From a virus, in the IMG/VR virus record IMGVR_UViG_3300045988_174992: a stretch of DNA of 64,000 nucleotides. One strand, given 5' to 3'. Both the position numbers and the translations under genes were made by a program. How positions within the stretch are numbered: the stretch's first letter is position 1; every line of letters starts with the position of its first letter. The notes under the pieces were generated by a model. The model worked only from the letters and a program-made list of their open reading frames with translations. It was not told where the DNA came from and ran no database searches. Positions 10,555-53,403 of the stretch are shown piece by piece.

Positions 10555-10582
10555 TTTAATTATATTTTAATTATTAACAATT

Positions 10583-10614
10583 ATAATATAGAACTTTTTA
10601 AGTAAATTTCAAAA
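10583..10614 (-). promoter_or_regulatory. phage promoter, TTTGAAAT / TTCTATATT class
   Basis: Reverse complement reads TTTGAAAT-N13-TTCTATATTAT. Upstream of 10033..10554, directly after a terminator. Confidence 0.6.
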
Positions 10615-10620
10615 TAATGC

Positions 10621-10649
10621 AAAAAAGGATGATCTTAAGATCATCCTTT
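10621..10649 (-). terminator. rho-independent terminator
   Basis: AAAGGATGATC-TTAA-GATCATCCTTT followed by a T6 run on the minus strand. Confidence 0.75.
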
Positions 10650-13457: not shown

Positions 13458-14711
13458 TTAGTTACTGCCATTCATCATATTCATGATGATTTCTTTCTTT
13501 TTTGGAGTCATATTTTCTAATATCTTATCAGTTGCATCTTTCAAAGTCATCTTTACTGTTGATAGAGAAACACCTTCATTTTCCGCTAATTCTGATACTG
13601 ACATGCTGTAAGGCATGCCAACACCATATCGTTTCTTCATCATTCTCTTTGCAGTAGGTGACAATGGTTCTAACAATTCATCTATAGCATTCCTCAAGCT
13701 AGATATACGTTCTTCTTCATCTAACTTATTGTCTTCAATGATGAATTCATCATTAGCCATCTTGCTTATATCATTATCATGATAGCAATCATCTGTATAA
13801 GGATTGATTCCATCTAATCTTATTATATCAGCTAATTTTGTTCCTTTACCAGCATTAGGTACTCTTACAACTTGACCTTGTCTTGATATATCTACTAATA
13901 TGCTTGCACGAATCCATTGAAATGCAACAGAAGCAAATACTGCAGTCTTTACATTCTTATCAACCCAAGCATAGAATTCTGATGTATTGTTGAATCCATC
14001 GACAGGTAATTTGCTCAATGTTTCATCAAGAAGCTTATCATAAGTAAATCCTTCTTTTATTATGCTCTTAGCTTTTTCATAGCATATAGGACTATCCTCA
14101 TCACATTCTAGCTTTATCTTTTGCTTGATAGAATTTCTCAGATTTGCTTTAGATGTATCAAATCTGTCGAATGCCGCTATCAATCCTTCATTACCAGATT
14201 GAATCAAATCATCAAATGGCATACCAAGATTCTGATAACGTTTAGCACAGTTTACAACTAATTTAAGATTGTTCTTTAAGAATATATCTCTATTTTCATC
14301 ACAGAATACTAAATCATCACATTCATTTTGTGGATGCTCTATATATTGCTTCTTTACTTCATTGAAGTATCTGTCTATATTGTTGTCAAAAGTCTTATCA
14401 GTATACTGCTTTACTAAACTTGCTCTTGCTTTTTTCTTAGCGGCAAGATATAATGTAGTTGCATCTGTTCTAGAAATAAATGGAGCTACTCTCATAGCTT
14501 CATCTATATAAGTACAAATGATATCCTTTTCATGACAATCCCTTATAGATCTTATTTCATCCTTCATTAACTGAATCCAATCTGCGAGGAAATTATCTTC
14601 TTCTATACCTAACCAAGGGCCAAATACAGGATATTTCTTTTTCAATGCTTTTACAAAGTCAACAATACGCTTTGTATTTGTTTTATTTATAGTTACTTTA
14701 ATACGTGGCAC
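13458..14711 (-). CDS. sigma-70-family RNA polymerase sigma factor (phage-encoded)
   Basis: Region 2: [49 protein letters not shown] is region 2.3/2.4-like. C-terminal HTH: [27 protein letters not shown] start. Confidence 0.8.
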
Positions 14712-17756: not shown

Positions 17757-17774
17757 TAATGTTTTAACAATTAT

Positions 17775-17803
17775 AATATAGAAATTACAAATAAAATTTC
17801 AAA
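17775..17803 (-). promoter_or_regulatory. phage promoter, TTTGAAAT / TTCTATATT class
   Basis: Reverse complement reads TTTGAAAT-N12-TTCTATATTAT. Confidence 0.6.
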
Positions 17804-17812
17804 CTTTTTATA

Positions 17813-18799
17813 CTATTTATTTCGTCTCCAATGGCAATCTTTCAGATAGTCAAAACATGACTGACCACCATCGTCTTTATCTTTATTGTATTCTGCTAAT
17901 GTATCTACAATCTTTTCAATAGACTTGTCATTTACAGTATCAGGTACTTCATATCCAAGGAGCCAATCTACTTCTTTCATGATATTGTACCATTCATCGT
18001 CTGTTTGATATATAGGAGTAACAGACTTTGTTGCTGTATATGGAAACTTGTCAAAACAAGCATAAACAAGACCTACCATCAACTTTGCAACATCAAGCTC
18101 CTTGTCTGTCAAAACGTTAAATACTGGACTAAAAGACATTCTATATACAAACTTGCTTGCAAGTTTCATGTATGTTTTAGTTCTGTTATCTGCCTTCTTC
18201 TTCTGAGAATGTTCAATCTCATCCTTCAATCCATCAATATACTTGTCAATAGAATATTCAGACATCATGAATGTATAGTAGTCCTTTGAAATCTTTGGCA
18301 TCTTAGGTCCACAAACCTTAATCTTAAGCTTATCAAGCAAATCCATATTGCTATCCATATCTTCAAAGTAATACTGGATAGGACAATACTTTCTTCCACC
18401 GACCTTGATTACATTATTGAAGAATCTTGGCTTTGGAATCAAGTCATACATCATATTAGGATCTGATGTATCATTCACAATATACTTACATCCATTCTTC
18501 TTCAATGAATAGATAATAGTAATATGATATTCTCTTGCAATCTTTGCAGCACACTCCCAGAAATAATGTACAGGGTTGAAGTAACTATCTTCATTAATAG
18601 GCTTGCAAATAAGACATCTTACTTTACTGATATCTGAATATTTATCATCTAACCATTCGTTCAACATCTTGTTTGTATGCTTTTCAGCTAATACATTCAT
18701 GCTATCCATGTACTCACCACAAGTTCCATGTTCCATATCTTTGTAGATGAAGATATCAATATCAAACACACTCGCACACTTTCTAAGTTCTTCAGTCAT
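17813..18799 (-). CDS. hypothetical protein
   Basis: 328-aa ORF. No motif recognised. Confidence 0.65.
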   Translation of the reverse strand: MTEELRKCASVFDIDIFIYKDMEHGTCGEYMDSMNVLAEKHTNKMLNEWLDDKYSDISKVRCLICKPINEDSYFNPVHYFWECAAKIAREYHITIIYSLKKNGCKYIVNDTSDPNMMYDLIPKPRFFNNVIKVGGRKYCPIQYYFEDMDSNMDLLDKLKIKVCGPKMPKISKDYYTFMMSEYSIDKYIDGLKDEIEHSQKKKADNRTKTYMKLASKFVYRMSFSPVFNVLTDKELDVAKLMVGLVYACFDKFPYTATKSVTPIYQTDDEWYNIMKEVDWLLGYEVPDTVNDKSIEKIVDTLAEYNKDKDDGGQSCFDYLKDCHWRRNK

Positions 18800-20105: not shown

Positions 20106-20140
20106 AATAATTTAATATTCTACATTTATTTAACATAATT

Positions 20141-20169
20141 AATATAGAAAAGTTGAATTAAAATTCAAA
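20141..20169 (-). promoter_or_regulatory. phage promoter (proximal of a tandem pair)
   Basis: Reverse complement reads TTTGAATT-N12-TTCTATATT. Confidence 0.5.
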
Positions 20170-20196
20170 CTTTTATTTCCTGTTAACTTTAGTTAA

Positions 20197-20225
20197 CATA
20201 TAGAACAATCTTCTAAAATTTCAAA
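20197..20225 (-). promoter_or_regulatory. phage promoter (distal of a tandem pair)
   Basis: Reverse complement reads TTTGAAAT-N12-TTCTATATG. Confidence 0.5.
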
Positions 20226-20250
20226 CTATAATTTCTTAATTTCAATATTT

Positions 20251-22576: not shown

Positions 22577-22628
22577 TAAAAATTAAATTGTTCTACATTC
22601 AGTTTGTCAATATTTATTTGACATACTA

Positions 22629-22657
22629 AATATAGAACAATCTTTCAGGATTTCAAA
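22629..22657 (-). promoter_or_regulatory. phage promoter, TTTGAAAT / TTCTATATT class
   Basis: Reverse complement reads TTTGAAAT-N12-TTCTATATT. Confidence 0.6.
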
Positions 22658-22671
22658 ATATATTCAAAAAT

Positions 22672-23979
22672 TTATTCAGCTGCCTTAATATTTATTCGTT
22701 CTTTTATTCTCTTCAGAATCTGAACTGTTGGTTCAATCTGCTCAATAATCTCATCCATAGGCTTGTATGCCATAGGAGACTCATCTAATGTTGACTTGTT
22801 GACAGAAGTTGAACAAACATCCTTCATTTCTTCGACAAATTCATCCATAGAAAGATTTGCCTTAGCAGCAGAACGTGACATCAATCGACCGGCACCATGA
22901 GGAGCAGTACAATTCCATTCAGCATTTCCTTTACCTACACAAATCAATACACCATCTCGCATATTGATAGGAATCACAAGTTCACGTCCATAAGCGGCAT
23001 TGACAGATCCTTTACGAATAATCATATCGTCAAAGTCAATGTAGTTATGCATTGTATTGATGACACGTGCCATAGAAGCACCTTTGACAATCTTAGTATA
23101 GATTTCTGTCATCTTATCCGAAATAAGCAAATGATTGTACTTGGCATAAGTCTGTGCAATTACCATATCAGTAAGATAGCCAATCAGATTCTTACCATTC
23201 AGATAGCCTGTTGGAACAGATGATACAAAGTCTTCCTTTGCATTCTTAATTCGCTCATTCCATTCTGACTTAGGATACATATCCTTTATCTTTTCAATAT
23301 GCTTTGCCCATTCAGAACTATCAACATGATAAGGCTTGTTTGCAACATTCATCCAGTACTTTGCTACCTTCAAACCAAAGTTGCGAGAACCACAATGTAT
23401 CATTATATATCCATTACCTTCGTCATCAGTATCATAAGACAAGAAATGATTGCCACCACCAGTAGTACCTAATGACTTCCAAAAAGTACCTTCATCCATA
23501 CCAATTCGGTTCAGCATATCGGAAATGTACTTTTCATTTACATTTACATTGTTTACAAAATTGGTTGTAGCAACAGCTCTGTCAATAGCAGTATTGCACA
23601 TCTTGTAAAACATCTTCTCATCAGCAATCTTCTTATCATAAATAGTGAATCCAGTAGGAATATCCTTCTTCCATCGATGTTCAAGCAATGCATAAGATTC
23701 CTCTGGACATGGCTTTGACATCTTGATGCAAGTTACCTGACAACCAATATCAACACCTACATGGCTTGGATTTACCATTGGATTATCCTTATCAATAGTA
23801 GAAGAGAAGCCAATTGTTATCGACTGCCCCAAGTGGATATCCGGCATTATTCGTATTTTCTGATCCTTGAATGCAGGACAGTCACAGATACTGTAAACCA
23901 TCTTCAATGCATCTTCTTCAACTGTCTTTGCAAAAATCTTGCAATCCTTATTGTACTTTCCAATTATATTGTATTCCAT
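22672..23979 (-). CDS. rtcB: RNA-splicing ligase RtcB (3'-phosphate/5'-hydroxyl RNA ligase)
   Basis: GVDIGC, GGGNHF, HCGSRNFG and APHGAGR motifs in RtcB order. 435 aa. Confidence 0.85.
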   Translation of the reverse strand: MEYNIIGKYNKDCKIFAKTVEEDALKMVYSICDCPAFKDQKIRIMPDIHLGQSITIGFSSTIDKDNPMVNPSHVGVDIGCQVTCIKMSKPCPEESYALLEHRWKKDIPTGFTIYDKKIADEKMFYKMCNTAIDRAVATTNFVNNVNVNEKYISDMLNRIGMDEGTFWKSLGTTGGGNHFLSYDTDDEGNGYIMIHCGSRNFGLKVAKYWMNVANKPYHVDSSEWAKHIEKIKDMYPKSEWNERIKNAKEDFVSSVPTGYLNGKNLIGYLTDMVIAQTYAKYNHLLISDKMTEIYTKIVKGASMARVINTMHNYIDFDDMIIRKGSVNAAYGRELVIPINMRDGVLICVGKGNAEWNCTAPHGAGRLMSRSAAKANLSMDEFVEEMKDVCSTSVNKSTLDESPMAYKPMDEIIEQIEPTVQILKRIKERINIKAAE

Positions 23980-23980
23980 G

Positions 23981-24256
23981 TTAATTCAAATCTAATTTTG
24001 TGAAACCTGTAATGACAACATGCAATTCTGCTACTTTACCTTCATTTTCTTGTCCATGTGAATAGGTTCGTTCATTCAACTTCTTGGTTTCTTCATCTTC
24101 TAATACATCTGTCCAAGTATCTAATGTATTTTCAGTAACATTACCAAACATGTTACACCACATCAGTTTTGTACCTTCATAAAAACCAGAAATTCCAAAC
24201 ATCGTGGTATAGCTAACTTTATAGTTGACTAATGCTTTTCTTCTCAATAATGACAT
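23981..24256 (-). CDS. hypothetical protein (LV[NS]Y[KR]V family)
   Basis: KALVNYKVSY near the N-terminus. 91 aa. Confidence 0.55.
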   Translation of the reverse strand: MSLLRRKALVNYKVSYTTMFGISGFYEGTKLMWCNMFGNVTENTLDTWTDVLEDEETKKLNERTYSHGQENEGKVAELHVVITGFTKLDLN

Positions 24257-24284: not shown

Positions 24285-24382
24285 AGGATTCACCTGCTAA
24301 GCGCCTGGATCACACAGGAAGCGGAAAAATATACTTCAGTATGTTCTATAAAAGGGACTCATTTGAGAGTCCCTGTGTGAAT
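24285..24382 (-). repeat. conserved helix-closed ~90-100-nt element, copy 1 (candidate ncRNA or miniature mobile element)
   Basis: The minus strand reads ATTCACACAGGGA...TTCCGCTTCCTGTGTGATCCAGGCGCTTAGCAGGTGAATCCT. TCACACAGG (24310..24318) pairs with CCTGTGTGA (24372..24380). Confidence 0.7.
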
Positions 24383-25180
24383 TTATTCCTCATTCAACTT
24401 GATGAATCTGATCTGGGTGAGGATAAACTTACCTTCATTTGTCTTTGCAATCTCCTTAAGCTTCTTGTCTACTTCTGGACGAGTTTCAGGAGTATTAGGA
24501 AGAGGTTCTGTCATCACCTTGATGAATTCACCTTTGCGAACTCCATCGGCTTCATCTTCTGAAACATTCTTCTTAATTACAACCAACTGAGTCTTGTCCT
24601 TTGTATCCATAACTGAAGTAAGAATCTTACCGTAAGCTGCTTCCTTGATGAGATTGTTACGGAGAATTCTGAGCTGCTGTTCTTCTGAAGAAAATGAATA
24701 CTCCTTATTGATTCTATAAAGGTTATCAACATTCTTGTGGCATGTATCTTCAAGTTCCTTAGCAAATTCCTTGTTGTTGATAATCATTGCAACAAACTCA
24801 TAGTACTTGAGAACTTTAGTACTTCTTTCATCAAGGTTGTTGATTCTTACATCACCATAAGAACTGATGTTCAAACGGAAATCCCACACCTTTTTATTGG
24901 TATCCCAATTGTATTCATAAGAAGGATAGATATCTAATTCATAGAAGCTGTTGTTATCTTCTGGTTTGAAAGTTACATGTCGATCAGTAGCAAGGTCAAC
25001 ATGGTACTCATCAATGTTGAACTTCTTCAAAATATCATTCACATCATTGATGTAGTTAGTAACAGCACTTGTATATTTCTCTGCTCCAACCTTGGTCAAT
25101 TCATTAATTTCATTCAAACGATTGTCAATTGACTCAACTGTTGTATACTTAGCTTTAACTTCTGCGTAGTTCATAATCAT
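24383..25180 (-). CDS. hypothetical protein
   Basis: 265-aa ORF, starts ATGATTATGAAC after promoter 25225..25253. Confidence 0.65.
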   Translation of the reverse strand: MIMNYAEVKAKYTTVESIDNRLNEINELTKVGAEKYTSAVTNYINDVNDILKKFNIDEYHVDLATDRHVTFKPEDNNSFYELDIYPSYEYNWDTNKKVWDFRLNISSYGDVRINNLDERSTKVLKYYEFVAMIINNKEFAKELEDTCHKNVDNLYRINKEYSFSSEEQQLRILRNNLIKEAAYGKILTSVMDTKDKTQLVVIKKNVSEDEADGVRKGEFIKVMTEPLPNTPETRPEVDKKLKEIAKTNEGKFILTQIRFIKLNEE

Positions 25181-25273: not shown

Positions 25274-25310
25274 AAAAAAAAAAAAATGGAACAATCAATT
25301 GATTGTTCCA
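25274..25310 (-). terminator. rho-independent terminator
   Basis: TGGAACAATC-AATT-GATTGTTCCA followed by a T13 run on the minus strand. Confidence 0.8.
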
Positions 25311-25317
25311 CTTCTAT

Positions 25318-26965: not shown

Positions 26966-26996
26966 ATTAAAAAGAGATGCTTGTTTTAAGCATCTC
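26966..26996 (-). terminator. rho-independent terminator
   Basis: GAGATGCTT / AAGCATCTC hairpin around the polymerase stop codon, with a T-run on the minus strand. Confidence 0.6.
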
Positions 26997-28278
26997 CAAA
27001 TAAGTCAAATTGTACTGTACCATTGCTATTCAACAATGGGAATTTCATTACTTCAAGAAATCTGTTCAATGGATCAAGAACATTCTTTTGCCATTGAACC
27101 GCTTTATCACATGGTGGTGCCCAAGATGGAAGCTCACCAGATGGATATCCAAAGTAATCTGTTTCAGCCTTCTTTGTACTTCCTAATCTTATATTGTAAT
27201 ACTTTACTTTCTGTCCTTGTACAATACGAAGATTTCTCTGATTGTTCTTCTTTGCCAAATAGTTATATCTTGCTGCACATTTTACTGATACTGGAGTCTG
27301 TTTTGCAAACATCAAATCTTCTTCATCACACAATACATATTTCTTGTAATTACCAACATTAATTGACTGTGAAATATCTTCAATAGGAGCAGCCCAGAAT
27401 TTCTTCTTCCATTTATCCAATTTACTGTTGAAATAGAGAATATATTCTTCTTTTGACATTTTACCAGTATCATAAACCAATGACCTTGTCATATCAGTAA
27501 TGATTTCCTTTGCAAGCTTAGGAGAAGTTGTCTTAATAAGTTCAATTCCAACACCAGTAATCTTTGAAGGTGTAAACCATTTGCCTTTTGAATAAGACAT
27601 GGCCTTCAAATATTTCTTTTTCTTCAATGTAATTGTTGCTTCAGAAACAGTTTCCAATTCAAACTCATGAATTGAATGACAATGACGTGGATTGTACATA
27701 TCATTCATCCATTCTGTATTCTGCTTATCAAGAAACTCCTTATTGAATTTCAATATCCATTTGATCTTGTCATCTCGTTCTGGAATACTTGCTAAAGTTT
27801 CTGGTGTCCAACATCTGAAGAAATCACCATATTGGGTATACACAGAATCTGTATCTGAGTATTCACTAATATGCTGTTGCCTAAACCAATCATGCTTTGA
27901 CTCATCAAGTTCAAATCCAAATTTTTCCCACAAATCCTTTCTTTGCCAAATATCTTCATGGAAAAACTCTTCAAGTCTATTCCACATGAATTTTGTCAAA
28001 TTTCTTGCCTCGCAGGTAATATCGGAAGCGCACCTCATGTCGTAGAAATAGAAGAATCTGTTTGCACATGCACCGTACGCCGAGTTATTTAAAAGCTTAC
28101 TGCATAATTCCAACATTGAATTCTCTTCAATAAGATGTTCCAAGTCCTCTTTATATGCTTTAAGCTCTTCCAATGAAAGTGAATATATGTCCCTTCCATC
28201 AAGCTTATCTTTCATAAATTGCTGACACTGCTCAGAGAAAACTTTTTTTTCTCCATATTTCTCTACATTATATTCCAT
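26986..28278 (-). CDS. family-B DNA polymerase, C-terminal (palm/thumb) fragment only
   Basis: KLLNNSAYGACANRFFYFYD is motif B as in T4 gp43 (KLLINSLYGA). YSDTDSVY is motif C. No Exo motifs or motif A. The ORF starts ~60 aa before motif B. Confidence 0.8.
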   Translation of the reverse strand: MEYNVEKYGEKKVFSEQCQQFMKDKLDGRDIYSLSLEELKAYKEDLEHLIEENSMLELCSKLLNNSAYGACANRFFYFYDMRCASDITCEARNLTKFMWNRLEEFFHEDIWQRKDLWEKFGFELDESKHDWFRQQHISEYSDTDSVYTQYGDFFRCWTPETLASIPERDDKIKWILKFNKEFLDKQNTEWMNDMYNPRHCHSIHEFELETVSEATITLKKKKYLKAMSYSKGKWFTPSKITGVGIELIKTTSPKLAKEIITDMTRSLVYDTGKMSKEEYILYFNSKLDKWKKKFWAAPIEDISQSINVGNYKKYVLCDEEDLMFAKQTPVSVKCAARYNYLAKKNNQRNLRIVQGQKVKYYNIRLGSTKKAETDYFGYPSGELPSWAPPCDKAVQWQKNVLDPLNRFLEVMKFPLLNSNGTVQFDLFGDA

Positions 28279-29792: not shown

Positions 29793-29854
29793 AATTCTTT
29801 CTTAATTTAAATTGTTAAAAATATTTGTTTGTTGTATATATTAAATACGTTTAT

Positions 29855-29883
29855 AATATAGAAAAGCTTCAAAAAATTTCAAA
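29855..29883 (-). promoter_or_regulatory. phage promoter, TTTGAAAT / TTCTATATT class
   Basis: Reverse complement reads TTTGAAAT-N12-TTCTATATTAT. Confidence 0.6.
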
Positions 29884-29903
29884 CTATTTATATAAAACTA
29901 TTT

Positions 29904-30365: not shown

Positions 30366-30680
30366 TCATAACAATACCTCACTTTCTTTATTTGCAAATA
30401 CATTATCTTCTTTACTCTTGCCAAGTTCATAAGGTCTCATAGATCCACAGATGAATGTCCAACCTTTCTTCAGATAAGGCTTGTCAGAAATATAAGACAA
30501 GATTCTCTCTCGTTGGCTAGGACTAGTCCATTCCTTTTCCATGTTATTGTCTGGGTTGGTACAATACATAGCCATGTCATCATCATTGAACCAATCATCT
30601 GGGTCTGGATCTGGCACGATAGCATGGTACTTGCACTTCAGACACTTCTTATCACAAAACTTCTTTTCACTCATAAGCAT
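30366..30680 (-). CDS. Cys-rich small protein
   Basis: CDKKCLKCKYH near the N-terminus. 104 aa. First gene after promoter 30702..30730. Confidence 0.55.
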   Translation of the reverse strand: MLMSEKKFCDKKCLKCKYHAIVPDPDPDDWFNDDDMAMYCTNPDNNMEKEWTSPSQRERILSYISDKPYLKKGWTFICGSMRPYELGKSKEDNVFANKESEVLL

Positions 30681-30701
30681 AATATTTATTTAACATATAA
30701 A

Positions 30702-30730
30702 AGATAGAATATTTTGTAGAAATTTCAAAC
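30702..30730 (-). promoter_or_regulatory. phage promoter, TTTGAAAT / TTCTATATT class (variant -10)
   Basis: Reverse complement reads TTTGAAAT-N12-TTCTATCTT. Confidence 0.5.
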
Positions 30731-30739
30731 AAATAATCT

Positions 30740-32070
30740 AACTTTTAGAAAATTTTTATGATATTTCTATTTTTATAAATAATTGAAATTAATTTATATA
30801 AAATACTATATTAAATTATAAGATATAAATTTATTCCTAATATATGAAACTTAAGCTAACACAACAAATTATCATAGGGCAGAAGCATAAGAATTATGCT
30901 TCACTTGATATACTGTGTTGGCTTTCTAAGAATCTTTATAACCAAGCTTTGTATCAGATAAGACAGCAATATAGTAAAGACAAGACTTATCTTGGTTATT
31001 CTAAGCTATATAGACTATTATATGATACAAAGCAACCAGATTATTTTGCTTTACCATATACTCAATGTAGCCAGCAAATACTACGTTTAGTTGATAAAAC
31101 ATATACTTCATTCTTTAAAGGAATAAAGTCAGCTAAGAATAAAGGAAAGAAAGTCAGACTTCCTAAGTATAAAGATAAAGAAAATGGAAGGTATGTATTT
31201 GTATATACCAGTCAATGTATCAAGGTAAAGGATGGCATTCTAAGACTTAAAGTGAACAAGACTGATTTCATTTACTTTAATTGTGACAAGGAAGATGTAT
31301 GCCAAGTAAGAATAGTACCTAAAGGAAATCATATAGTAGTAGAAATAATATATCAAGTAGAATATGAACTGAAGAAAGATAATGGAAATTATGCTAGCAT
31401 AGATCTTGGAATTGACAATATAGTTACTTTAGCTTCTAACTCAGCTCAATCCGTTCTTTATAATGGAAGACCATTGAAAGCAATAAATCACTTTTACAAC
31501 AAGAGAAAAGCTGAGTTGCAATCTAAGGTAAAGACTAAGTCAACTAAGAGAATAAAGCGTTTGAATGGTAAGAGAAACAGAAAGGTAAAAGACTTCATGC
31601 ATAAGCTAAGTCATGCCATAGTATGTTACATGGAATCAAACAACATAAATACATTGATTGTAGGAAAGAATGTTGGTTGGAAAGACAGTATCAAGCTAGG
31701 GCATGTTGTAAATCAAAACTTTGTTTCAATACCATACAATATGCTAATACAGATGCTAGAGTATAAGTGTAAGCTAAAAGGTATCACATTCATTGTGGTA
31801 AATGAAGCATATACTTCAAAGTGTAGTTTCATGGACAATGAAAATATTTGCAAGCACAAAGTATATGCTGGATCTAGAATAAGAAGAGGATTGTTTGTAA
31901 CAAAGAATGGACTTAGACTAAATGCAGATATAAATGGAGCTTTGAATATAATGGTACTAGGTTGTACTAAGATAAATGTAAAACGTGATGCTCTAGTAAT
32001 AGAGCCAGCGAATATGAGGTTTGTAGTGAACCCAATTAGATTGACTTTAAGTCAATAGAATGAAATTTTA
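30740..32070 (+). mobile_element. TnpB-only IS200/IS605-like element (boundaries approximate)
   Basis: tnpB sits alone between the minus-strand promoter (30702..30730) and the first fibre gene. No tnpA seen. Ends not defined. Confidence 0.35.
30844..32058 (+). CDS. tnpB: TnpB (IS200/IS605-family OrfB, RNA-guided RuvC-like nuclease)
   Basis: RuvC triad in order: ASIDLGIDN (D), VVNEAYTSKCS (E), LNADINGALNI (D). 404 aa. The TSKCSF...RRGLF subtype lacks the second CxxC pair. Confidence 0.85.
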   Translation: MKLKLTQQIIIGQKHKNYASLDILCWLSKNLYNQALYQIRQQYSKDKTYLGYSKLYRLLYDTKQPDYFALPYTQCSQQILRLVDKTYTSFFKGIKSAKNKGKKVRLPKYKDKENGRYVFVYTSQCIKVKDGILRLKVNKTDFIYFNCDKEDVCQVRIVPKGNHIVVEIIYQVEYELKKDNGNYASIDLGIDNIVTLASNSAQSVLYNGRPLKAINHFYNKRKAELQSKVKTKSTKRIKRLNGKRNRKVKDFMHKLSHAIVCYMESNNINTLIVGKNVGWKDSIKLGHVVNQNFVSIPYNMLIQMLEYKCKLKGITFIVVNEAYTSKCSFMDNENICKHKVYAGSRIRRGLFVTKNGLRLNADINGALNIMVLGCTKINVKRDALVIEPANMRFVVNPIRLTLSQ

Positions 32071-32137
32071 TTTGAAATTTATTTGTTTATGTTATTTTTA
32101 TATACATAAAATAAATAAATAAATAATAAAATACACT

Positions 32138-33229
32138 ATGACATTAACAAATTTGAATAAGCTTTTTGTTCGTGTTACAGAGGCTGGGCTTCGTGATGCA
32201 GTCATTAATAAATCTAAGGAGTCTAACAACAATAAGATTTACTTCTTAACAAAATCTCAAGAAATTGTTACTCAGGGTGTTGCTTATGGTCTTTCTACCG
32301 ATGTCCAGGCACAGATTGCTAACATCAAGTCTATCTTGAAGTCATTTGACAATAATGGTCATGGTACAGAGGATTCAGTAAAGTCTGCTATCGATGCTGT
32401 ACAGGCTGCTCTTGATGCATATAAAGCAGAAAATGATGCTAAGCGTGCTCTTCTTGTTAAGACAGTTGCTTACAATGCTGATACTAAGACTATCGACTTC
32501 ACATCAGAAAATGGTACAACAGTTCAGCATATCAATGCTAGTGATATCATTGGCAACCATGTTGTAAAGAGTTCTTCTTATGATGCATCTACTAATAAAT
32601 TGAAGCTCACATTTGGTGGTGCTAGTGAAGATGTTGATGTTGATATCGACCTTGGTCAGATGCTTGACATGAATGACGTCATCTCTGGTGATGTTGCACA
32701 CTTCACAGTTAACTATGCTGAGAAGAAACTTACTATCAAGCCAGTTACTGCAAAAGTTGCTAGTGATACAGTAGGTCTTGCTGATGCTAAGGATGTTAAG
32801 TCTTATGTTGATGCTGCTGTTAGCGGTGCACAGGATACTCTCCAGGCTGCTATCGATACTATCAATAGTAAGCTCAATATTATTCAAGGTGCAGAAAGCG
32901 TAGAGGGCTCTATCAATAAGGCATTGAAGGATGCTAAGGAATATGCAGATGGCCTTAATTCAGCTGCTAATGCTGCTATTACAAAGGAAATTTCTGATCG
33001 TCAGGCTGCTGACCAAGCATTGTATGGTGGTGTAATCCCTGCTGATGGTGCTTCTACTATCTCTGGTAATGCTACTAACATCGCTGCTTTAGTAGCTGCT
33101 CTTGAAACTGAGAAGACAAATCGTGAAGCTGCTGATAACGCTGAAAAGACTGCTCGTGAAGCTGCTATCAAGGAGATTACAGATGCATTAGCTGATCCTG
33201 CTACATTCTGGGAAGATTACACTTCTTAA
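32138..33229 (+). CDS. tail-fibre-like protein (Ala-rich, coiled-coil)
   Basis: Shares the N-terminal module (KLFVRV...KIYFLTKSQEIVTQGVAYG) with 34144.. and the LRR fibre genes. Ala/Asp-rich repeats. Confidence 0.5.
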   Translation: MTLTNLNKLFVRVTEAGLRDAVINKSKESNNNKIYFLTKSQEIVTQGVAYGLSTDVQAQIANIKSILKSFDNNGHGTEDSVKSAIDAVQAALDAYKAENDAKRALLVKTVAYNADTKTIDFTSENGTTVQHINASDIIGNHVVKSSSYDASTNKLKLTFGGASEDVDVDIDLGQMLDMNDVISGDVAHFTVNYAEKKLTIKPVTAKVASDTVGLADAKDVKSYVDAAVSGAQDTLQAAIDTINSKLNIIQGAESVEGSINKALKDAKEYADGLNSAANAAITKEISDRQAADQALYGGVIPADGASTISGNATNIAALVAALETEKTNREAADNAEKTAREAAIKEITDALADPATFWEDYTS

Positions 33230-36250: not shown

Positions 36251-37433
36251 AAACTATGATACATTATCCCAATTCAATGATGAATCTATACACCCAGAAA
36301 ACAAGATATGTTTGATAAAAGATAAAGGTGTAATATATTCAAATGGTGTACAGTATTCACATTCTAAAATGCATATAATACAAGATATTGGAGATTCAGA
36401 TAACATAGTAGATAAGTTTAATGAATTGAGAAAAGGTTTATTAGAATCAAATCTAATGGCAGCTAGGACACCACATACTCTCATTTACTGGACAGGAGAT
36501 TCTAATACTATAGATATTAGTGGTACTACATATACAGCTGAACCAGATAAAGTAAACATAGATGGGGTAGAATACTACCAGTTAAAATTAGATAAAGATT
36601 TAAATAATAGTTTTAGTAATAATACTTTTACTAATTTAATATTTAAAGATGTTGATACAAGTAATGTTACTAATATGAATAATATGTTCGGTTATTGCAA
36701 TGCTCTTACTTCTTTGTATGTGTCTGAATTTGATACAAGTAATGTTACTAATATGGCTAATATGTTTTATTATTGCGAGGCTCTTACTTCTTTAGATGTA
36801 TCTAAATTTGATACAAGTAATGTTACTAATATGTTTAATATGTTTGGTAGATGCTGTGCTCTTACTTCTTTAGATGTATCTAAATTTGATACAAGTAAAG
36901 TTACTAATATGAGTAATATGTTCAATAATTGCAGTTCTCTTACTTCTTTGGATGTATCTAAATGGGATACAAGTAAAGTTACTGGTATGTATAGTATGTT
37001 TAATTATTGCATATCTATTACTTCTTTAGATGTATCTAAATTTGATACTAGTAAAGTTACTGATATGTCTAGTATGTTTCAACATTGCAGATTACTTACT
37101 TCTTTTGATGTGTCAAATTTTAATACAAGTAATGTTACTAATATGAATACTATGTTCTCTTCTTGCAGTGCTCTTACTTCTTTGGACGTATCTGGGTGGG
37201 ATACAAGTAATGTTATTTATATGGGTTATATGTTCAGGAATTGCTGGGCTCTTACTTCTTTGGACATATCTGGATGGGATACAAGTAATGTTACTAATAT
37301 GAATAGTATATTCTCTGGTTGCAGTTCTCTTAAAACAATAAGAATGGTAGGTTGTTCACAGACTACTATAGATAAGATAAAAGCACAACTATCTACAGAT
37401 GGTATAACTGGATGTACTATTGTAACAGAATAA
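36234..37433 (+). CDS. BspA/DUF285-type leucine-rich-repeat fibre (receptor-binding) protein, paralog 1
   Basis: About 10 repeats of F..C..LTSLDVS.FDTS.VTNM..MF. Conserved N-terminal module and a C-terminal module ending LKTIRMVGCSQTTIDKIKAQLSTDGITGCTIVTE. Confidence 0.7.
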   Translation: MVKIFKNYDTLSQFNDESIHPENKICLIKDKGVIYSNGVQYSHSKMHIIQDIGDSDNIVDKFNELRKGLLESNLMAARTPHTLIYWTGDSNTIDISGTTYTAEPDKVNIDGVEYYQLKLDKDLNNSFSNNTFTNLIFKDVDTSNVTNMNNMFGYCNALTSLYVSEFDTSNVTNMANMFYYCEALTSLDVSKFDTSNVTNMFNMFGRCCALTSLDVSKFDTSKVTNMSNMFNNCSSLTSLDVSKWDTSKVTGMYSMFNYCISITSLDVSKFDTSKVTDMSSMFQHCRLLTSFDVSNFNTSNVTNMNTMFSSCSALTSLDVSGWDTSNVIYMGYMFRNCWALTSLDISGWDTSNVTNMNSIFSGCSSLKTIRMVGCSQTTIDKIKAQLSTDGITGCTIVTE

Positions 37434-37470
37434 ATATAACAGAATAAAATTTTATATATAAAAAGAAATC

Positions 37471-38217
37471 ATGGCTAAATTATTTAGAAATTACAATACA
37501 TTGGTGGAATATGAAGCAGACACAAATAAACCTGTAAACACAGTTTGTTTCATTAAAGATGCAAAGGTCATCTATGTAGATGGCATACGATATTCATATA
37601 AGCAACTTGACTATCTACCACCTGCTATTAATGAAGCAGAAGCATTAGAATATATGGGTAAGATTATTAAGAATGCCCAGGAAGTAGGATTGATTGGTAT
37701 ACCAGTACCTAAACTAGTACCTGGTATATACTGGACAGGAGATTCTAATATTATAAGTATTAGTGGTACAGATTATACAGCTGAATCTGATAATATAACT
37801 ATAGATGGTGTAGAATACTATCAGTTAAAATTGGATAAAGATTTAGATAATGATTTTTACAACTTTAATTATAATTATTTTACTAATTTAATATTTAAAG
37901 ATGTTGATACAAGTAATGTTACTAATATGAGTAATATGTTCGAAGGTTGTTGGGATCTTACTTCTTTGGATGTTAGTAATTTTGATACAAGTAATGTTAC
38001 TGATATAGGATTTATGTTTAGTGATTGTGGTTCTCTTACTTCTTTAGATATGTCTGGATGGGATATAAGTAACGCCATCAAAATGAACAAAATGCTCACT
38101 GGTTGTAGTGCTCTTAAAACTATCAGAATGGTAGGTTGTTCACAGACTACTATAGATAAGATAAAAGCACAATTATCTACTGATGGTATAACTGGTTGCA
38201 CTATTGTAACAGAATAA
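37471..38217 (+). CDS. BspA/DUF285-type LRR fibre protein, paralog 2
   Basis: Same N- and C-terminal modules, with about 3 LRR units. Confidence 0.7.
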   Translation: MAKLFRNYNTLVEYEADTNKPVNTVCFIKDAKVIYVDGIRYSYKQLDYLPPAINEAEALEYMGKIIKNAQEVGLIGIPVPKLVPGIYWTGDSNIISISGTDYTAESDNITIDGVEYYQLKLDKDLDNDFYNFNYNYFTNLIFKDVDTSNVTNMSNMFEGCWDLTSLDVSNFDTSNVTDIGFMFSDCGSLTSLDMSGWDISNAIKMNKMLTGCSALKTIRMVGCSQTTIDKIKAQLSTDGITGCTIVTE

Positions 38218-38250
38218 ATTATAACAGAATAATTATAACAGAATAAAATC

Positions 38251-39225
38251 ATGCCGAAAATATTTAGAAACTACAATACATTATCTCAATTCAATACTGA
38301 ATCCACACATCCAGAAAACAAGATATGTTTCATTAAAGATAATGGAGTAATATATTCAAATGGTGTACAGTATTCACCTTATAAAATGGACACTATAGCT
38401 AATATAGAAGATTCAGATAACATAGTAGATAAGTTTAATGAATTGAGAAAAGGTTTATTAGAATCAAATCTAATGGAAGCTAGAACACTACATACTGTCA
38501 TATACTGGACTGGAGATTCTAATACTATAAACATTAGTGGTACTACATATACAGCTGAACTAGATAAAATAAATATAGATGGTGTAGTATACTATCAGTT
38601 AAAATTGTATAAAGATTTAGATAATAATTTTTATAAATTTAGTAATAATACTTTTGCTAATTTAATATTTAAAGATGTTGATACAAGTAAAGTAACTAAT
38701 ATGAATAATATGTTCCATTATTGCAATGCTCTTACTTCTTTGGATGTATCTAAATTTGATACTAGTAAAGTTACTAACATGTCATGGATGTTTGAATATT
38801 GCATGTCTCTTACTTCTTTAGATTTGAGTACATGGGATACTAGTAAGGTTACTAATATGAATGCTATGTTCCTTTATTGTAGTGCTCTTACTTCTTTGGA
38901 TTTGAGTGGATTTGATACTAGTAAAGTTACTGATATGAGTTTTATGTTCAGTAATTGCAGTTCTCTTACTTCTTTGGATTTGAGTGGATTTGATACTAGT
39001 AAAGTTACTGATATGAGTTTTATGTTCAGTAATTGCAGTTCTCTTACTTCTTTGGATTTGAGTGGATGGGATACAAGTAATGTTAATAATATGCGTAATA
39101 TGTTCAGTGGTTGTAGTGCTCTTAAAACAATCAGAATGGTAGGTTGTTTGCAGACTACTATAGATAAGATAAAAGCACAACTATCTAGTAATGGTATAAC
39201 TGGATGCACTATTGTAACAGAATAA
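38251..39225 (+). CDS. BspA/DUF285-type LRR fibre protein, paralog 3
   Basis: Same modules, about 6 LRR units including a perfect 78-bp tandem duplication. Confidence 0.7.
   Translation: MPKIFRNYNTLSQFNTESTHPENKICFIKDNGVIYSNGVQYSPYKMDTIANIEDSDNIVDKFNELRKGLLESNLMEARTLHTVIYWTGDSNTINISGTTYTAELDKINIDGVVYYQLKLYKDLDNNFYKFSNNTFANLIFKDVDTSKVTNMNNMFHYCNALTSLDVSKFDTSKVTNMSWMFEYCMSLTSLDLSTWDTSKVTNMNAMFLYCSALTSLDLSGFDTSKVTDMSFMFSNCSSLTSLDLSGFDTSKVTDMSFMFSNCSSLTSLDLSGWDTSNVNNMRNMFSGCSALKTIRMVGCLQTTIDKIKAQLSSNGITGCTIVTE
38887..39042 (+). repeat. perfect 2 x 78-bp tandem duplication (one LRR unit)
   Basis: 38887..38964 and 38965..39042 read identically, each encoding LTSLDLSGFDTSKVTDMSFMFSNCSS. Confidence 0.85.
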
Positions 39226-39250: not shown

Positions 39251-39276
39251 AGAAGAGGAATCTTAAGATTCCTCTT
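39251..39276. terminator. bidirectional hairpin terminator
   Basis: GAAGAGGAATC-TTAA-GATTCCTCTTC between convergent genes. Overlaps the stop of 39263..39754. Confidence 0.65.
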
Positions 39277-39754
39277 CCAATTTCTTTTTCAATTCTTCAC
39301 ATACCTTATGGTTTTCTTCTTCCATCTTCTTGATAGTTTCTGGATTTCCATCAAATGACTCAATTGTCTTTTTCATATCCTTTTTCAAATCTTCATATAG
39401 ATCTGGATTGATCTTAGTCCAATTCTTCCTAGGATCTTTCTTTCCGGTGTATTCCCAATCATCAAGAATTGTTTGAATAATATTGATTCTACACATTTCC
39501 CATTCATATTCATTCAATTCTTCAAACAATTCATCAACTTCTGAATTCAACTTCCACAATGTATCACCTTCAGAATCTGATGGAAACACATCCTTTGGTG
39601 TACAGATGCAAATCTGGCGAATCTTATTCTTTATTCCATCAATATTTTTTGAACATTCTTCTTTTGCTCGTTCAAAATCACTATAAGAAGTATATTGACA
39701 ACCTGGTAACCAAACTTCTCCTTTATAAGCTTTAATGCAATGATCTACTGACAT
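39263..39754 (-). CDS. hypothetical protein
   Basis: 163-aa ORF with an AAGGAGA Shine-Dalgarno-like sequence 7 nt upstream of the ATG. Confidence 0.65.
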   Translation of the reverse strand: MSVDHCIKAYKGEVWLPGCQYTSYSDFERAKEECSKNIDGIKNKIRQICICTPKDVFPSDSEGDTLWKLNSEVDELFEELNEYEWEMCRINIIQTILDDWEYTGKKDPRKNWTKINPDLYEDLKKDMKKTIESFDGNPETIKKMEEENHKVCEELKKKLEEES

Positions 39755-40879: not shown

Positions 40880-40896
40880 TTTTATTTAACGATTAT

Positions 40897-40925
40897 AATA
40901 TAGAAAAAAGCCTTAATTTTTCAAA
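40897..40925 (-). promoter_or_regulatory. phage promoter, TTTGAAAT / TTCTATATT class
   Basis: Reverse complement reads TTTGAAAA-N12-TTCTATATTAT. Overlaps the stop of 40913..41152. Confidence 0.5.
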
Positions 40926-41181: not shown

Positions 41182-41270
41182 ATTCACACAGGGACGTTAA
41201 AATTATCTTAACTGATAGAATATACTGAAATATGTTATTCCGCTCCCTGTGTGACCCAGGCACATTCCTA
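41182..41270 (+). repeat. conserved helix-closed element, copy 2
   Basis: ATTCACACAGGGACG...TTCCGCTCCCTGTGTGACCCAGGCAC. Orientation is opposite to copy 1 relative to the flanking minus-strand genes. Confidence 0.7.
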
Positions 41271-41280
41271 TAGTTATTTT

Positions 41281-41739: not shown

Positions 41740-41788
41740 AAAATCTACTACTTTTCCATAATCATCATTATTAATTATTTACGTAATG

Positions 41789-41818
41789 AATATAGAAAAA
41801 AATGCAGGAAATTTCAAA
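41789..41818 (-). promoter_or_regulatory. phage promoter nested in a terminator
   Basis: Reverse complement reads TTTGAAAT-N13-TTCTATATT. The -35 box lies in the loop of hairpin 41802..41833. Confidence 0.55.
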
Positions 41819-53249: not shown

Positions 53250-53278
53250 AATATAGAACAATTTTTAAAAATTTCAAA
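53250..53278 (-). promoter_or_regulatory. phage promoter, TTTGAAAT / TTCTATATT class
   Basis: Reverse complement reads TTTGAAAT-N12-TTCTATATT. Confidence 0.6.
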
Positions 53279-53305: not shown

Positions 53306-53403
53306 ATTCACACAGGTAGCGTAAAATTTTCTTAGGTTATAATTTATACTCCTAAACAATTTTCCGCTCCCTGTGTGACCCAGGCGCTTTACTAGTGAAT
53401 CCT
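53306..53403 (+). repeat. conserved helix-closed element, copy 3
   Basis: ATTCACACAGGTAGCG...TTCCGCTCCCTGTGTGACCCAGGCGCTTTACTAGTGAATCCT. Confidence 0.7.

What the first reader, a model, noticed from the sequence alone, without database searches (positions are those of the whole stretch)
24285..24382. Conserved ~90-100-nt helix-closed intergenic element, copy 1 of 3: candidate novel ncRNA or miniature mobile element
Three intergenic sites share ATTCACACAGG[GT]A...(55-60 nt)...TTCCGCT[TC]CCTGTGTGA[TC]CCAGGC[GA]C. In all copies a 9-10-bp closing helix (TCACACAGG with CCTGTGTGA) is possible. The C-to-T change in this copy keeps the pairing as a G-U wobble. The interior differs in sequence, but each copy contains its own hairpin: GGGACTC/GAGTCCC here, GTTAA/TTAAC in copy 2, TTAGG/CCTAA in copy 3. 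A conserved ATACT block and TTCCGCT are also shared. Copies 1 and 3 share a 3' extension (GCGCTT..GTGAATCCT) whose GTGAAT can pair with the 5' ATTCAC instead. Copy 1 is sense to the flanking minus-strand genes, while copies 2 and 3 are antisense. That pattern fits either an independently transcribed RNA or a DNA-level element such as a MITE or a recombination or binding site. I could not match it to any RNA family I know.
Basis: seen in the sequence. Interest (0 to 1): 0.8.

Follow-up and report, generated by a model that had tools for sequence, protein, structure and literature searches.

The report
Palindromic intergenic repeat of a jumbo phage
The three look-alike intergenic sequences are real copies of a roughly 100-base palindromic repeat found about a dozen times per genome in a group of uncultured giant phages, and it most likely marks the ends of transcription units as a terminator-type hairpin rather than being a new RNA gene.

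Summary
The window holds exactly three copies: 24285-24382 (minus strand), 41182-41273 (+) and 53306-53400 (+). A 16-mer from the element hits 3 times against 0.01 expected.

About 90 more copies exist, all in one clade of AT-rich, T4-related jumbo phages. These are IMG/VR contigs from one metagenome, two 'Romboutsia' MAGs that are the same phage, and some ENA/Logan contigs. The copies occupy about 12-14 fixed syntenic sites per genome.

The closing helix is only a subfamily trait. The constant part is a GC-rich module, TTCCGCTYCCTG-NNNNNN-CCAGGCGC, followed by an ending ..GnGAAY. Distant relatives show a longer palindrome with inverted termini (ATTCAC...GTGAAT).

On the gene strand most copies follow the same order:
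- stop codon;
- the element, GC module first;
- a T-run;
- often a sigma-A-type promoter.

Copy 1 is the flipped case and carries its own small hairpin plus T-run in the gene sense.

Other results:
- The site of copy 1 is empty in two more distant relatives.
- Covariation is weak and does not pick a strand.
- There is no Rfam match, target-site duplication, transposase or CRISPR-like array.

Best reading: a PeSL/REP/ERIC-like palindromic extragenic repeat that acts as a terminator or 3'-end hairpin. It is not an independent structured ncRNA. The strongly conserved core remains unexplained.

The parts
24285..24382 (-). Copy 1 of the palindromic repeat (the finding). It is read on the minus strand, which here is the same sense as the flanking genes. 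This is the flipped orientation compared with most sites.
   Evidence: Orthologous copies are present in all 8 close relatives checked, L129-L133, L066, L174 and L177, and in L200 and L201.
24371..24382 (-). Left arm ATTCACACAGGG. It is complementary to CCTGTGTGA in the core and also to the 3' end GTGAAT.
24348..24373 (-). Interior hairpin GGGACTC-TCAAAT-GAGTCCC followed by TTTTAT. It looks like an intrinsic terminator in the sense of the genes and is specific to this site.
   Evidence: It is kept in the orthologues and is the only part of the element retained in L199.
24301..24326 (-). Conserved GC-rich core TTCCGCTTCCTGTGTGATCCAGGCGC.
   Evidence: Per-column information is about 2 bits. The core is 23 of 26 bases identical in L193, whose flanking gene is 66% identical in DNA.
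24288..24300 (-). 3' extension TTAGCAGGTGAAT, the right terminus of the element (family form ..GnGAAY).
24383..24385 (-). Stop codon of the 265-aa ORF. It directly abuts the element.
41182..41273 (+). Copy 2, antisense to the flanking minus-strand genes. The core is at 41238-41263. The right terminus is degenerate (ATTCCTATAG). The stop codon of the 152-aa ORF is at 41281-41283.
53306..53400 (+). Copy 3, antisense to the flanking minus-strand genes. The core is at 53362-53387 and the right terminus ..CTAGTGAAT ends at 53400. The stop codon of the 116-aa ORF is at 53415-53417.
53250..53277 (-). Sigma-A-type promoter (TTGAAA, 16 nt, TATATT) that follows copy 3 on the gene strand and precedes the NUDIX gene. 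It belongs to a promoter motif family with at least 15 members in the window.

Best explanation
The finding is one copy of a family of roughly 100-nt imperfect-palindrome extragenic repeats.

SHOWN
- The family is native to a clade of uncultured AT-rich, T4-related jumbo myoviruses.
- It occupies about 12-14 fixed sites per genome.
- The constant unit is a GC-rich module, TTCCGCTYCCTG-N6-CCAGGCGC, followed by ..GnGAAY. An AT-rich centre and a partial inverted copy of the module complete the hairpin.
- On the strand of the neighbouring genes the usual order is: stop codon, then the element with its GC module first, then a T-rich run, then often a sigma-A-type promoter.

INFERRED
- The element is transcribed as the tail of the upstream message.
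- Its long hairpin plus U-run then acts as a boundary of the transcription unit: an intrinsic-type terminator, a 3'-end protecting or processing hairpin, or both. This is the role of the stem-loop part of the PeSL cassettes of T4-type phages.
- The copies arose by duplication, insertion and recombination at the DNA level. Deletions in one arm have kept the palindrome imperfect.
- Copy 1 is inserted the other way round. It supplies termination in the gene sense through its own compact hairpin plus T-run.

NOT EXPLAINED
- This model does not account for why the 26-nt core is kept so exactly.
For: Family and sites
- 37 exact 24-mer hits fall in 8 jumbo contigs. Profile searches raise this to 82 copies and 69 distinct sequences.
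- The copies fall into about 12 flank-defined syntenic sites, each with a fixed orientation. Variant-core sites add to this.

Polarity
- In 32 of 38 copies the ORF beyond the ..GAAY end is on the opposite strand, with its stop codon about 1-60 nt away.
- On the reverse-complement strand, 45 of 74 copies are followed by at least 7 T in 12 nt, against 15 of 74 on the other strand.
- On the same strand, 32 of 74 copies are followed within 130 nt by a match of at least 10/12 to TTGAAA-N16-18-TATAAT, against 3 of 74 on the other strand.
- Site (10,10) shows stop, element, T-run, promoter (TTGAAA...TATAAT or a close variant), ATG in all 7 genomes.
- Copy 3 is followed by the promoter at 53277-53250. 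That promoter belongs to a motif family of at least 15 members in the window.

Hairpin-plus-T-run modules
- In subfamilies without the big helix, a compact hairpin flanked by an A-run and a T-run sits next to the core (type H and variant V2; L218).
- The flipped site of copy 1 carries GGGACTC-N6-GAGTCCC+TTTTAT in the gene sense.
- My own scan found only 4 canonical terminator-like hairpins on the minus strand in 64 kb, one of them inside an ORF. The elements therefore supply a good share of the candidates.

Strand
- G.U cells in the closing helix number 27 on the reverse-complement strand and 13 on the other.

Stability
- Both strands fold with z from -2.9 to -5.8.

Precedent
- PeSL stem-loops are intergenic, precede sigma-70-type early promoters, and terminated transcription in reporter assays (PMC2839356, PMC4122927).
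Against: - No transcript data exist, so termination is inferred from position and shape only.
- The stem encloses a 55-60 nt interior, and the T-run usually starts 2-3 nt after the stem. This is unlike compact intrinsic terminators, and the consensus terminator scan did not call any copy.
- Two to three of about 12 sites, including the finding itself, have the element in the other orientation. The (8/9,0) site has no obvious replacement terminator.
- A structural role alone does not explain the core. It is 23/26 identical between genomes whose flanking genes are 66-71% identical in DNA and whose remaining intergenic sequence is about 52% identical.
- It also does not explain why the partner arm is less conserved, or why three site families keep the core without the partner arm.
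- The wobble asymmetry is small and its cells are not independent events.
Confidence: 0.5

Rival explanations
1. A non-autonomous mobile element (MITE-, REPIN- or ERIC-like) that spreads at the DNA level and has no function for the phage. Its position next to stop codons would reflect where insertions are tolerated or targeted. This overlaps with the best explanation.
For: - The site of copy 1 is empty in L197 and L195 (24-28 nt spacer) but filled in closer and in more distant relatives.
- In L193 the element sits 30 nt after the stop rather than directly against it, and has a different left half. This suggests a separate insertion or heavy remodelling.
- Inverted termini are present: GATTCACCAGGATG...CATCCTGGGGACTC in L193, and ATTCACTAGGAA...TTCCTGGTGAAT in variant V2.
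- The core is nearly identical across genomes with 56-75% protein identity in the flanking genes.
- Tandem partial termini occur at the ..GAAY end.
- REPINs are inverted REP doublets of similar size (PMC3116915, PMC3337134).
Against: - No target-site duplication is visible at any junction.
- Apart from a lone TnpB, no transposase or recombinase is found among the window's ORFs.
- Two sites were checked across all close genomes and every genome holds the element, 8/8 and 7/7.
- Orientation and position relative to stop codons and promoters are strongly non-random.
- The element is absent from 185,579 species-representative genomes except for the phage contigs binned as Romboutsia.
Confidence: 0.25
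2. The GC-rich core is a sequence-specific recognition site, on DNA or on the transcribed RNA, for a phage protein. Candidates are an antiterminator or terminator-modulating factor, a repressor or activator, a fork or recombination protein, or a nuclease. The roughly 14 copies would then form one regulon, and the variable hexamer would set subclasses.
For: - The core is the best-conserved part, at about 2 bits per column. It stays 88% identical where the surrounding DNA is 52-71% identical.
- It is kept where the partner arm is lost.
- Its layout is two constant blocks, CCGCTYCCTG and CCAGGCGC, around a hexamer that takes at least four forms: TGTGAC, AACGTC, ACCGCC and GCCGCC.
- Where a compact hairpin replaces the big helix, the core sits at a fixed distance next to it.
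Against: - No candidate binding protein was identified.
- At site (10,10) three close genomes carry three substitutions in the core (CAGGGAGCGG to CAGTTGGCGG, and CGGTTGGCGG in L225) with no other change to the locus. L132 has a decayed core.
- The arms of the core are only a weak inverted repeat (CCTG/CAGG).
- Within a genome, conservation could owe something to gene conversion between copies.
Confidence: 0.2
3. An independently transcribed small RNA or structured ncRNA. In this view a promoter lies in the AT-rich centre, the core forms the RNA body, and the 3' extension or a hairpin forms the end.
For: - A -10-like box (TAGAAT/TATAAT and TATACT) lies at a constant distance from the core in most copies.
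- Some copies have CCAGG-N6-CCTGG, or ACAGGG-GAA-CCCTGT with a covarying ATAGGG/CCCTAT, followed by T-rich sequence.
- A few inner hairpins show G.U only on this strand.
Against: - There is no -35 box, and the match is no better than chance in the promoter scan. The phage's own promoters have a clear TTGAAA-N16/17-TATAWT form.
- The central TATAAT box is inverted relative to the core in variant V2 compared with type H, and in L129/L133 compared with the window.
- The 3' hairpin is absent from about half of the copies and shows no covariation.
- RNAalifold gives no consensus structure beyond a 4-bp hairpin.
- No Rfam hit.
- Most copies would run head-on into the 3' end of the neighbouring gene.
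Confidence: 0.07
4. An intercistronic double-stranded RNA processing site, comparable to the RNase III sites of T7 or SP82 early mRNAs or to Correia and ERIC hairpins. It would work in either orientation.
For: - The long, mostly paired stem reaches 18-19 bp in type C copies.
- It lies in transcribed spacers between co-directional genes.
- It occurs in both orientations.
- The comparison with T7, SP82, Correia and ERIC rests on my own knowledge and on a review retrieved only as a search hit and not read (PMC10969869).
Against: - Many copies have only 11-13 bp of stem, and some have 6-8 bp.
- The strong orientation bias and the T-run are not needed for processing.
- No cleavage data exist.
Confidence: 0.12

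Closest known systems
PeSL (promoter-early stem-loop) cassettes of T4-type myoviruses (Arbiol et al. 2010, PMC2839356; Comeau et al. 2014, PMC4122927)
   Same: - Both are repeated intergenic motifs of about 100 bp in large T4-related myoviruses.
- In both, a stem-loop directly follows the upstream gene and is followed by an AT-rich stretch and a host-sigma-type promoter for the next gene.
- In both, copies are mosaic between related genomes and lie at indel junctions. Here the RtcB cassette is deleted in L199 with one end inside the element.
   Different: - Here the stem-loop is a long imperfect palindrome with a 55-60 nt interior and a 26-nt GC-rich core kept almost exactly. PeSL stem-loops are short G-run/C-run hairpins.
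- The promoter is a separate motif at a variable distance and is absent at several sites.
- Two to three sites carry the element inverted.
- Recombination between copies, such as mini-circles, has not been shown here.
REP/REPIN, ERIC/IRU and Correia (CREE) elements of bacteria
   Same: - All are short, palindromic, extragenic and multi-copy elements, co-transcribed with neighbouring genes.
- REPINs are inverted doublets of a module that itself holds a small hairpin, with singlets and decayed arms.
- These elements act as terminators, stabilisers or RNase targets.
   Different: - This family lives in a phage genome, with about 14 copies rather than hundreds.
- No RAYT or other transposase is seen.
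- No GTAG-type conserved end and no TA duplication are present.
- One arm is systematically shortened.
Rho-independent (intrinsic) terminators
   Same: - A GC-rich stem is followed by a U-rich tract.
- The structure is placed after a stop codon and before the next promoter.
   Different: - The stem encloses a large branched interior.
- The U-tract usually starts 2-3 nt after the stem.
- The sequence, not just the shape, is conserved.

Membership tests
Any Rfam RNA family | A covariance-model match at or near the family's gathering score. | tested here: not met
   The whole window gives 0 hits at gathering thresholds. The three loci searched at E<=10 give nothing for copy 1. Copies 2 and 3 give only 10-19-bit matches, mostly to generic hairpin miRNA/sRNA models, far below the gathering scores.
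Structured ncRNA (general) | A conserved secondary structure supported by compensatory changes. | tested here: inconclusive
   The closing helix has 88% of cells paired, but 7 of its 13 pairs depart only by unpaired cells and only one pair changes on both sides. Over the whole structure 3 pairs change on both sides, against a shuffle mean of 3.0. RNAalifold returns only a 4-bp consensus hairpin. Hairpin hp1 shows no covariation.
MITE | Terminal inverted repeats. | tested here: met
   Termini are ATTCAC...GTGAAT in window copies 1 and 3. They reach 12-14 nt in variant V2 and L193. In the window subfamily the left terminus is shortened.
MITE | Target-site duplication flanking the element. | tested here: not met
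   No direct repeat is visible at the junctions of the window copies, V2 or L193. The filled-versus-empty comparison is too diverged to fix the junction to the base.
MITE | Presence/absence polymorphism (empty sites). | tested here: met
   The site of copy 1 is empty in L197 and L195 and holds a half element in L199. There is no polymorphism among the close genomes at the two sites tested.
MITE | A parent autonomous element or a transposase acting on the same ends. | tested here: not met
   The window ORFs scanned against Pfam show only a lone TnpB (OrfB_IS605), whose flanks are unrelated to the element. The rest of the genomes was not scanned.
REPIN / REP-RAYT | Two REP modules in inverted orientation forming one hairpin. 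| tested here: met
   The left arm of L193 equals the reverse complement of its right arm minus 20 nt. Type C copies have an 18-19 bp inverted repeat.
REPIN / REP-RAYT | A cognate RAYT (Y1/HUH) gene flanked by the repeats. | not tested
   None was found in the window. The complete phage genomes were not available to scan.
PeSL cassette | An intergenic stem-loop followed by a host-sigma-type early promoter and the next gene's start. | tested here: met
   This holds at copy 3 and at site (10,10) in 7 of 7 genomes. Promoter matches of at least 10/12 follow 32 of 74 copies on that strand, against 3 of 74 on the other. It does not hold at copy 1 or copy 2.
PeSL cassette | Demonstrated terminator and promoter activity, and recombination between copies. 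| not testable with these tools
   This needs reporter assays and inverse PCR, as in PMC2839356.
Intrinsic terminator | A compact GC-rich hairpin (loop 3-8 nt) immediately followed by a U-tract. | tested here: not met
   The consensus scan calls none of the three copies. The big stem has a 55-60 nt interior. The T-run is enriched, with 45 of 74 copies having at least 7 T in 12 nt. Inner compact hairpins plus a T-run exist in copy 1, type H and V2.
Solitary CRISPR repeat (RNA anti-CRISPR) | Sequence identity to the repeat of a CRISPR array in a host genome. | tested here: not met
   The 17-mer CCCTGTGTGACCCAGGC scanned against 185,579 species genomes gives only isolated single hits and the phage contigs. 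No array-like clusters were found.
IS200/IS605-derived PATE or TnpB omega-RNA | Similarity to the ends or omega-RNA region of the resident tnpB element. | tested here: not met
   The flanks of tnpB (30400-30900 and 31900-32260) are AT-rich and share nothing with the element.

The most novel reading that the evidence does not exclude
The 26-nt GC-rich module would be a dedicated recognition site read by a phage-encoded factor on the nascent RNA or on the DNA. It has constant blocks CCGCTYCCTG and CCAGGCGC around a hexamer with at least four allelic forms. It would sit at the ends of about 14 transcription units and would make termination, read-through or recombination at these boundaries conditional. 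That would be a phage-wide switch for transcription-unit boundaries of a kind not described for jumbo phages.
Probability: 0.15. Interest if true: 0.7.

Novelty: new variant of a known kind. Interest (0 to 1): 0.4.

Why it matters
Repeated regulatory or palindromic cassettes have been described in detail for only a few phages, notably the PeSLs of coliphage- and vibriophage-type T4 relatives.

This family shows the same logic in an uncultured, AT-rich jumbo-phage clade that is probably hosted by low-GC Firmicutes of the gut. A repeated hairpin sits at gene ends next to promoters, is mosaic between genomes, and lies at indel junctions.

It adds one unusual feature: a long, almost invariant GC-rich core with a variable hexamer.

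Possible uses:
- a ready marker for transcription-unit boundaries when annotating these genomes;
- a handle for tracing recombination between them;
- a defined 26-nt sequence to test for a binding factor.

It also serves as a caution. A helix-closed conserved intergenic element in a phage need not be an RNA gene.

Tried and rejected
1. Rfam, at gathering thresholds and at E<=10: nothing meaningful.
2. tRNA or tmRNA: none.
3. Similarity to cultured phages or plasmids. Megablast of the surrounding 5 kb against the phages and blastn of the consensus element against phages and plasmids found nothing.
4. Solitary CRISPR repeat: no array-like hits in the species genomes.
5. Link to the window's TnpB or an omega-RNA: no shared sequence.
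6. Small ORF inside the element. An SD-plus-ATG reading frame exists in some subtypes only and is not conserved (read from the alignment).
7. Internal sigma-A promoter. The scan is at chance level. The box flips relative to the core. The phage's real promoter motif is different.
8. Promoter on the reverse-complement strand, with the core as a -35 or activator site centred near -41. This fits the spacing, but it would fire antisense at the flipped and convergent sites, and a separate canonical promoter already follows many copies. Not pursued further.
9. Tyrosine-recombinase or attC-like site. The arms are only weakly inverted, no GTTRRRY/RYYYAAC boxes are present, no integrase is found in the window, and synteny is stable.
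10. Modular shuffling inferred from a shared 5' flank. That shared flank proved to be a second short palindrome (AGTTCTGTTCAAGAACT). Longer flanks pair one-to-one apart from the (8,0)/(9,0) and (11,9)/(12,9) site pairs.
11. Choosing the strand by G.U against A.C counts: 27 against 13, not independent events, and inner hairpins lean the other way.
12. Hairpin hp1 (CCAGG-N6-CCTGG): present in about half of the copies, with no covariation.

Full report
**1. The observation**

- The 16-mer CCTGTGTGAYCCAGGC matches at 24303-24318(-), 41246-41261(+) and 53370-53385(+). That is 3 hits against 0.01 expected by chance.
- The 5' block ATTCACACAGGKA matches exactly at 24370-24382(-), 41182-41194(+) and 53306-53318(+).
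- Reading the sequence confirms the closing helix, the copy-specific inner hairpins, the ATACT and TTCCGCT blocks, the G.U wobble of copy 1 and the alternative ATTCAC/GTGAAT pairing. The minimum-energy fold of copy 1 uses that alternative pairing.
- All three copies lie between co-directional minus-strand ORFs. Copy 1 is sense to them; copies 2 and 3 are antisense.
- Both strands of every copy fold better than shuffles, with z from -2.9 to -5.8. Folding therefore does not pick a strand.
- A relaxed search finds no fourth copy in the window.

**2. The genome**

- The window is about 30% GC and densely packed with genes.
- It encodes a split family-B DNA polymerase, a T4-type neck protein, a lysozyme-domain protein, a sigma-70-family protein, RtcB, NUDIX, ThyX, dUTPase and a lone TnpB.
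- There are no tRNAs and no close cultured relative. The polymerase is at most 30% identical to those of Chryseobacterium, Tenacibaculum and cyano T4-like phages and of uncultured megaphages.
- Contigs 88-95% identical to the window sit in two MAGs labelled 'uncultured Romboutsia sp.'. This is a weak hint that the host is a low-GC Firmicute.

**3. The family**

- The exact 24-mer occurs 37 times in eight 167-294 kb IMG/VR contigs from one metagenome.
- A profile built from these copies finds 82 copies and 69 distinct sequences. Almost none differ in length.
- Clustering by 500-nt flanks puts the copies into about 12 syntenic sites. Each site has a fixed orientation and its own subtype.
- A looser core pattern adds further sites in the same genomes with a different hexamer.
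- Only the phage contigs hold the element. A scan of 185,579 species genomes gives only isolated chance hits and no array-like clusters. Cultured phages and plasmids have nothing similar.

**4. What is conserved**

- Per-column information peaks at about 2 bits over CCGCTCCCTGTGTGACCCAGGC. It is also high at the GAA of the 3' end and at ATAC(T).
- The 5' arm is more variable.
- Whole site families have a different 5' arm: TTGTGTCAGGG, TTCACTAGGAAA, or no arm at all. In the last case (type H) a compact hairpin, GGTCGAGAGAT..ATCTCGACC, sits next to the core. All of these keep the core and the 3' end.
- The 'helix-closed' look is therefore a trait of the window's subfamily and does not define the family.
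- The core has two constant blocks, CCGCTYCCTG and CCAGGCGC, around a hexamer. The hexamer is TGTGAC at the main sites, AACGTC and ACCGCC at other sites of the same genomes, and GCCGCC in a distant relative.

**5. Deeper relatives**

Homologues of the 265-aa protein next to copy 1 range from 52% to 96% identity. The state of the site varies with the relative:
- L201 (82%) and L200 (79%) hold the full element.
- L197 (66%) and L195 (59%) are empty, with only a 24-28 nt spacer.
- L199 (68%) keeps only the 5' arm and the small hairpin. It lacks the 91-aa gene and RtcB.
- L193 (56%) and L198 (52%) hold variant elements.

In L193 the left half, GATTCACCAGGATGGCG|GATTAATCC, is the reverse complement of the right half, GGATTAATCCGCTACCTGTGTGACCCAGGCGCCATCCTGGGGACTC, minus 20 nt. 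In variant V2 the left end ATTCACTAGGAA mirrors the right end TTCCTGGTGAAT. The underlying unit is therefore a long palindrome of a roughly 45-nt module with inverted termini, and one arm has been shortened in different ways in different lineages.

The core is 23/26 identical between the window and the L193/L217 genome. The flanking genes there are 66-71% identical in DNA, and the rest of the spacer is about 52% identical.

The site of copy 3 in relatives L217, L219 and L218 also holds a GC-rich block after the stop codon and, before the next gene, an AT-rich hairpin or a T-run, with a TTGAAA/TATATT-type promoter box visible in L217 and L219.

Among the close genomes, presence or absence does not vary. 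All 8 hold the element at the site of copy 1, and all 7 hold it at site (10,10). Individual cores can decay, as in L132 and in L223-L225.

**6. Position and polarity**

- In 32 of 38 copies the ORF beyond the ..GAAY end is on the opposite strand, and its stop codon is about 1-60 nt away.
- Read on the gene strand, the element therefore starts just after a stop codon with its GC module first.
- On that strand 45 of 74 copies are followed by at least 7 T in 12 nt, against 15 of 74 on the other strand.
- On that strand 32 of 74 copies are followed within 130 nt by a match of at least 10/12 to TTGAAA-N16-18-TATAAT, against 3 of 74 on the other strand.
- This promoter form is the phage's own abundant intergenic motif, with at least 15 copies in the window. 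One of them follows copy 3.
- Site (10,10) shows the whole order in seven genomes: stop, element, T-run, TTGAAA...TATAAT or a close variant, ATG.
- Copy 1 is the flipped case. In the gene sense it carries its own hairpin, GGGACTC-N6-GAGTCCC plus TTTTAT. This hairpin is conserved in the orthologues and is the only part left in L199.
- Canonical compact terminator-like hairpins are few. My scan found four on the minus strand in 64 kb, one of which (26973-26997) lies inside an ORF.

**7. RNA structure**

- RNAalifold gives no consensus beyond a 4-bp hairpin.
- The closing helix has 88% of cells paired. Only one of its pairs changes on both sides, and the observed values barely exceed the shuffles: 84.3% against 83.4% of cells paired.
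- G.U cells number 27 on the gene-sense strand and 13 on the other, or 10 against 5 when the armless sites are left out. This is a weak lean, and the cells are not independent events.
- The small hairpin CCAGG-N6-CCTGG occurs in about half of the copies and shows no covariation.
- The middle hairpin is inverted as a block in L129/L133. The central TATAAT box is inverted relative to the core in V2 compared with type H. These are behaviours of DNA palindromes and do not fit a fixed promoter for a core RNA.
- Rfam has no match.

**8. Interpretation**

The best-supported reading is a palindromic extragenic repeat that serves as a boundary of transcription units. It would act as a terminator or 3'-end hairpin transcribed as the tail of the upstream message.

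This corresponds to the stem-loop half of the PeSL cassettes of T4-type phages. Those cassettes lie between a stop codon and an early promoter, terminated transcription in reporter assays, and mark indel junctions (PMC2839356, PMC4122927). The family also resembles bacterial REPIN, ERIC and Correia repeats (PMC3116915, PMC3337134).

The position, polarity and family structure are shown. Termination itself is inferred.

The exact conservation of the 26-nt core and the role of the variable hexamer remain unexplained. A sequence-specific reader, protein or otherwise, is the main open possibility.

The ncRNA-gene reading is weak. The plain-MITE reading fails on target-site duplication and on the absence of a transposase. 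It is nonetheless supported by the empty sites and the inverted termini.

**9. Verdict**

This is a real, well-defined, clade-specific repeat family. It is a new variant of a known kind of element and of moderate interest.

Noticed in passing
window 30844-32058 (+): A lone TnpB-like ORF of 404 aa (Pfam OrfB_IS605 6e-25, Cas12f1-like TNB 4e-15). It lies at a strand-switch point, has very AT-rich flanks and no tnpA. No obvious omega-RNA structure lies downstream.
   Followed up: partly
window, many intergenic sites, e.g. 10573-10628, 17763-17818, 20129-20250, 22604-22666, 29830-29898, 30676-30730, 40885-40940, 41771-41817, 46710-46762, 52570-52691, 53225-53287, 55409-55463: A second, more abundant intergenic motif. 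Its gene-strand consensus is ATTTGAAAT-N~10-TTCTATATT, i.e. a sigma-A-type promoter (TTGAAA, 16-17 nt, TATATT/TATAAT). Two 112-nt promoter-pair blocks, 20118-20229 and 52559-52670, are 96% identical.
   Followed up: partly
window 4435-4466 and 4664-4695, within the 427-nt gap 4362-4788: A perfect 32-nt inverted repeat with arms 197 nt apart. It encloses another strong hairpin (AAAGCGTCAGAGT...ACTCTGACGCTTTT). This may be a different palindromic element or a structured RNA.
   Followed up: no
window 3515-3542(+), 47906-47931(+), 39251-39278(-), 25282-25315(-): The canonical terminator-like hairpins of this phage are near-perfect DNA palindromes centred on CTTAAG or CAATTG. A related short palindrome, AGTTCTGTTCAAGAACT, flanks many element copies in the sister genomes (e.g. 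L006, L016, L029).
   Followed up: no
window 36574-39211: Tandem 78-nt coding repeats run across three adjacent ORFs. Three ORFs of the window match DUF285 (best E 1.9e-59).
   Followed up: no
window 42029-42172, within ORF 41838-42674: A hexanucleotide repeat encodes a long (EP)n/(ES)n low-complexity tract in a membrane-type protein.
   Followed up: no
window 22672-24256; relative L199 900-1100: The RtcB gene and the adjacent 91-aa gene are missing in relative L199. One deletion end lies inside the element and the other lies at the promoter region downstream of RtcB. RtcB therefore behaves as an optional cassette.
   Followed up: partly
window 13458-14711 (-): A phage-encoded sigma-70-family protein with regions 2 and 4. 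Its promoter specificity is unknown. It is conserved in the distant relative L193.
   Followed up: no
L136, L144, L146, L150, L153, L156, L159, L162, L164, L169, L172, L174, L177, L179, L188, L190, L191 (GenBank CALFLM01, CALESE01): Two public MAGs labelled 'uncultured Romboutsia sp.' contain many contigs that are this jumbo phage, 88-95% identical to the window. This is either a binning artefact or a clue to the host.
   Followed up: partly
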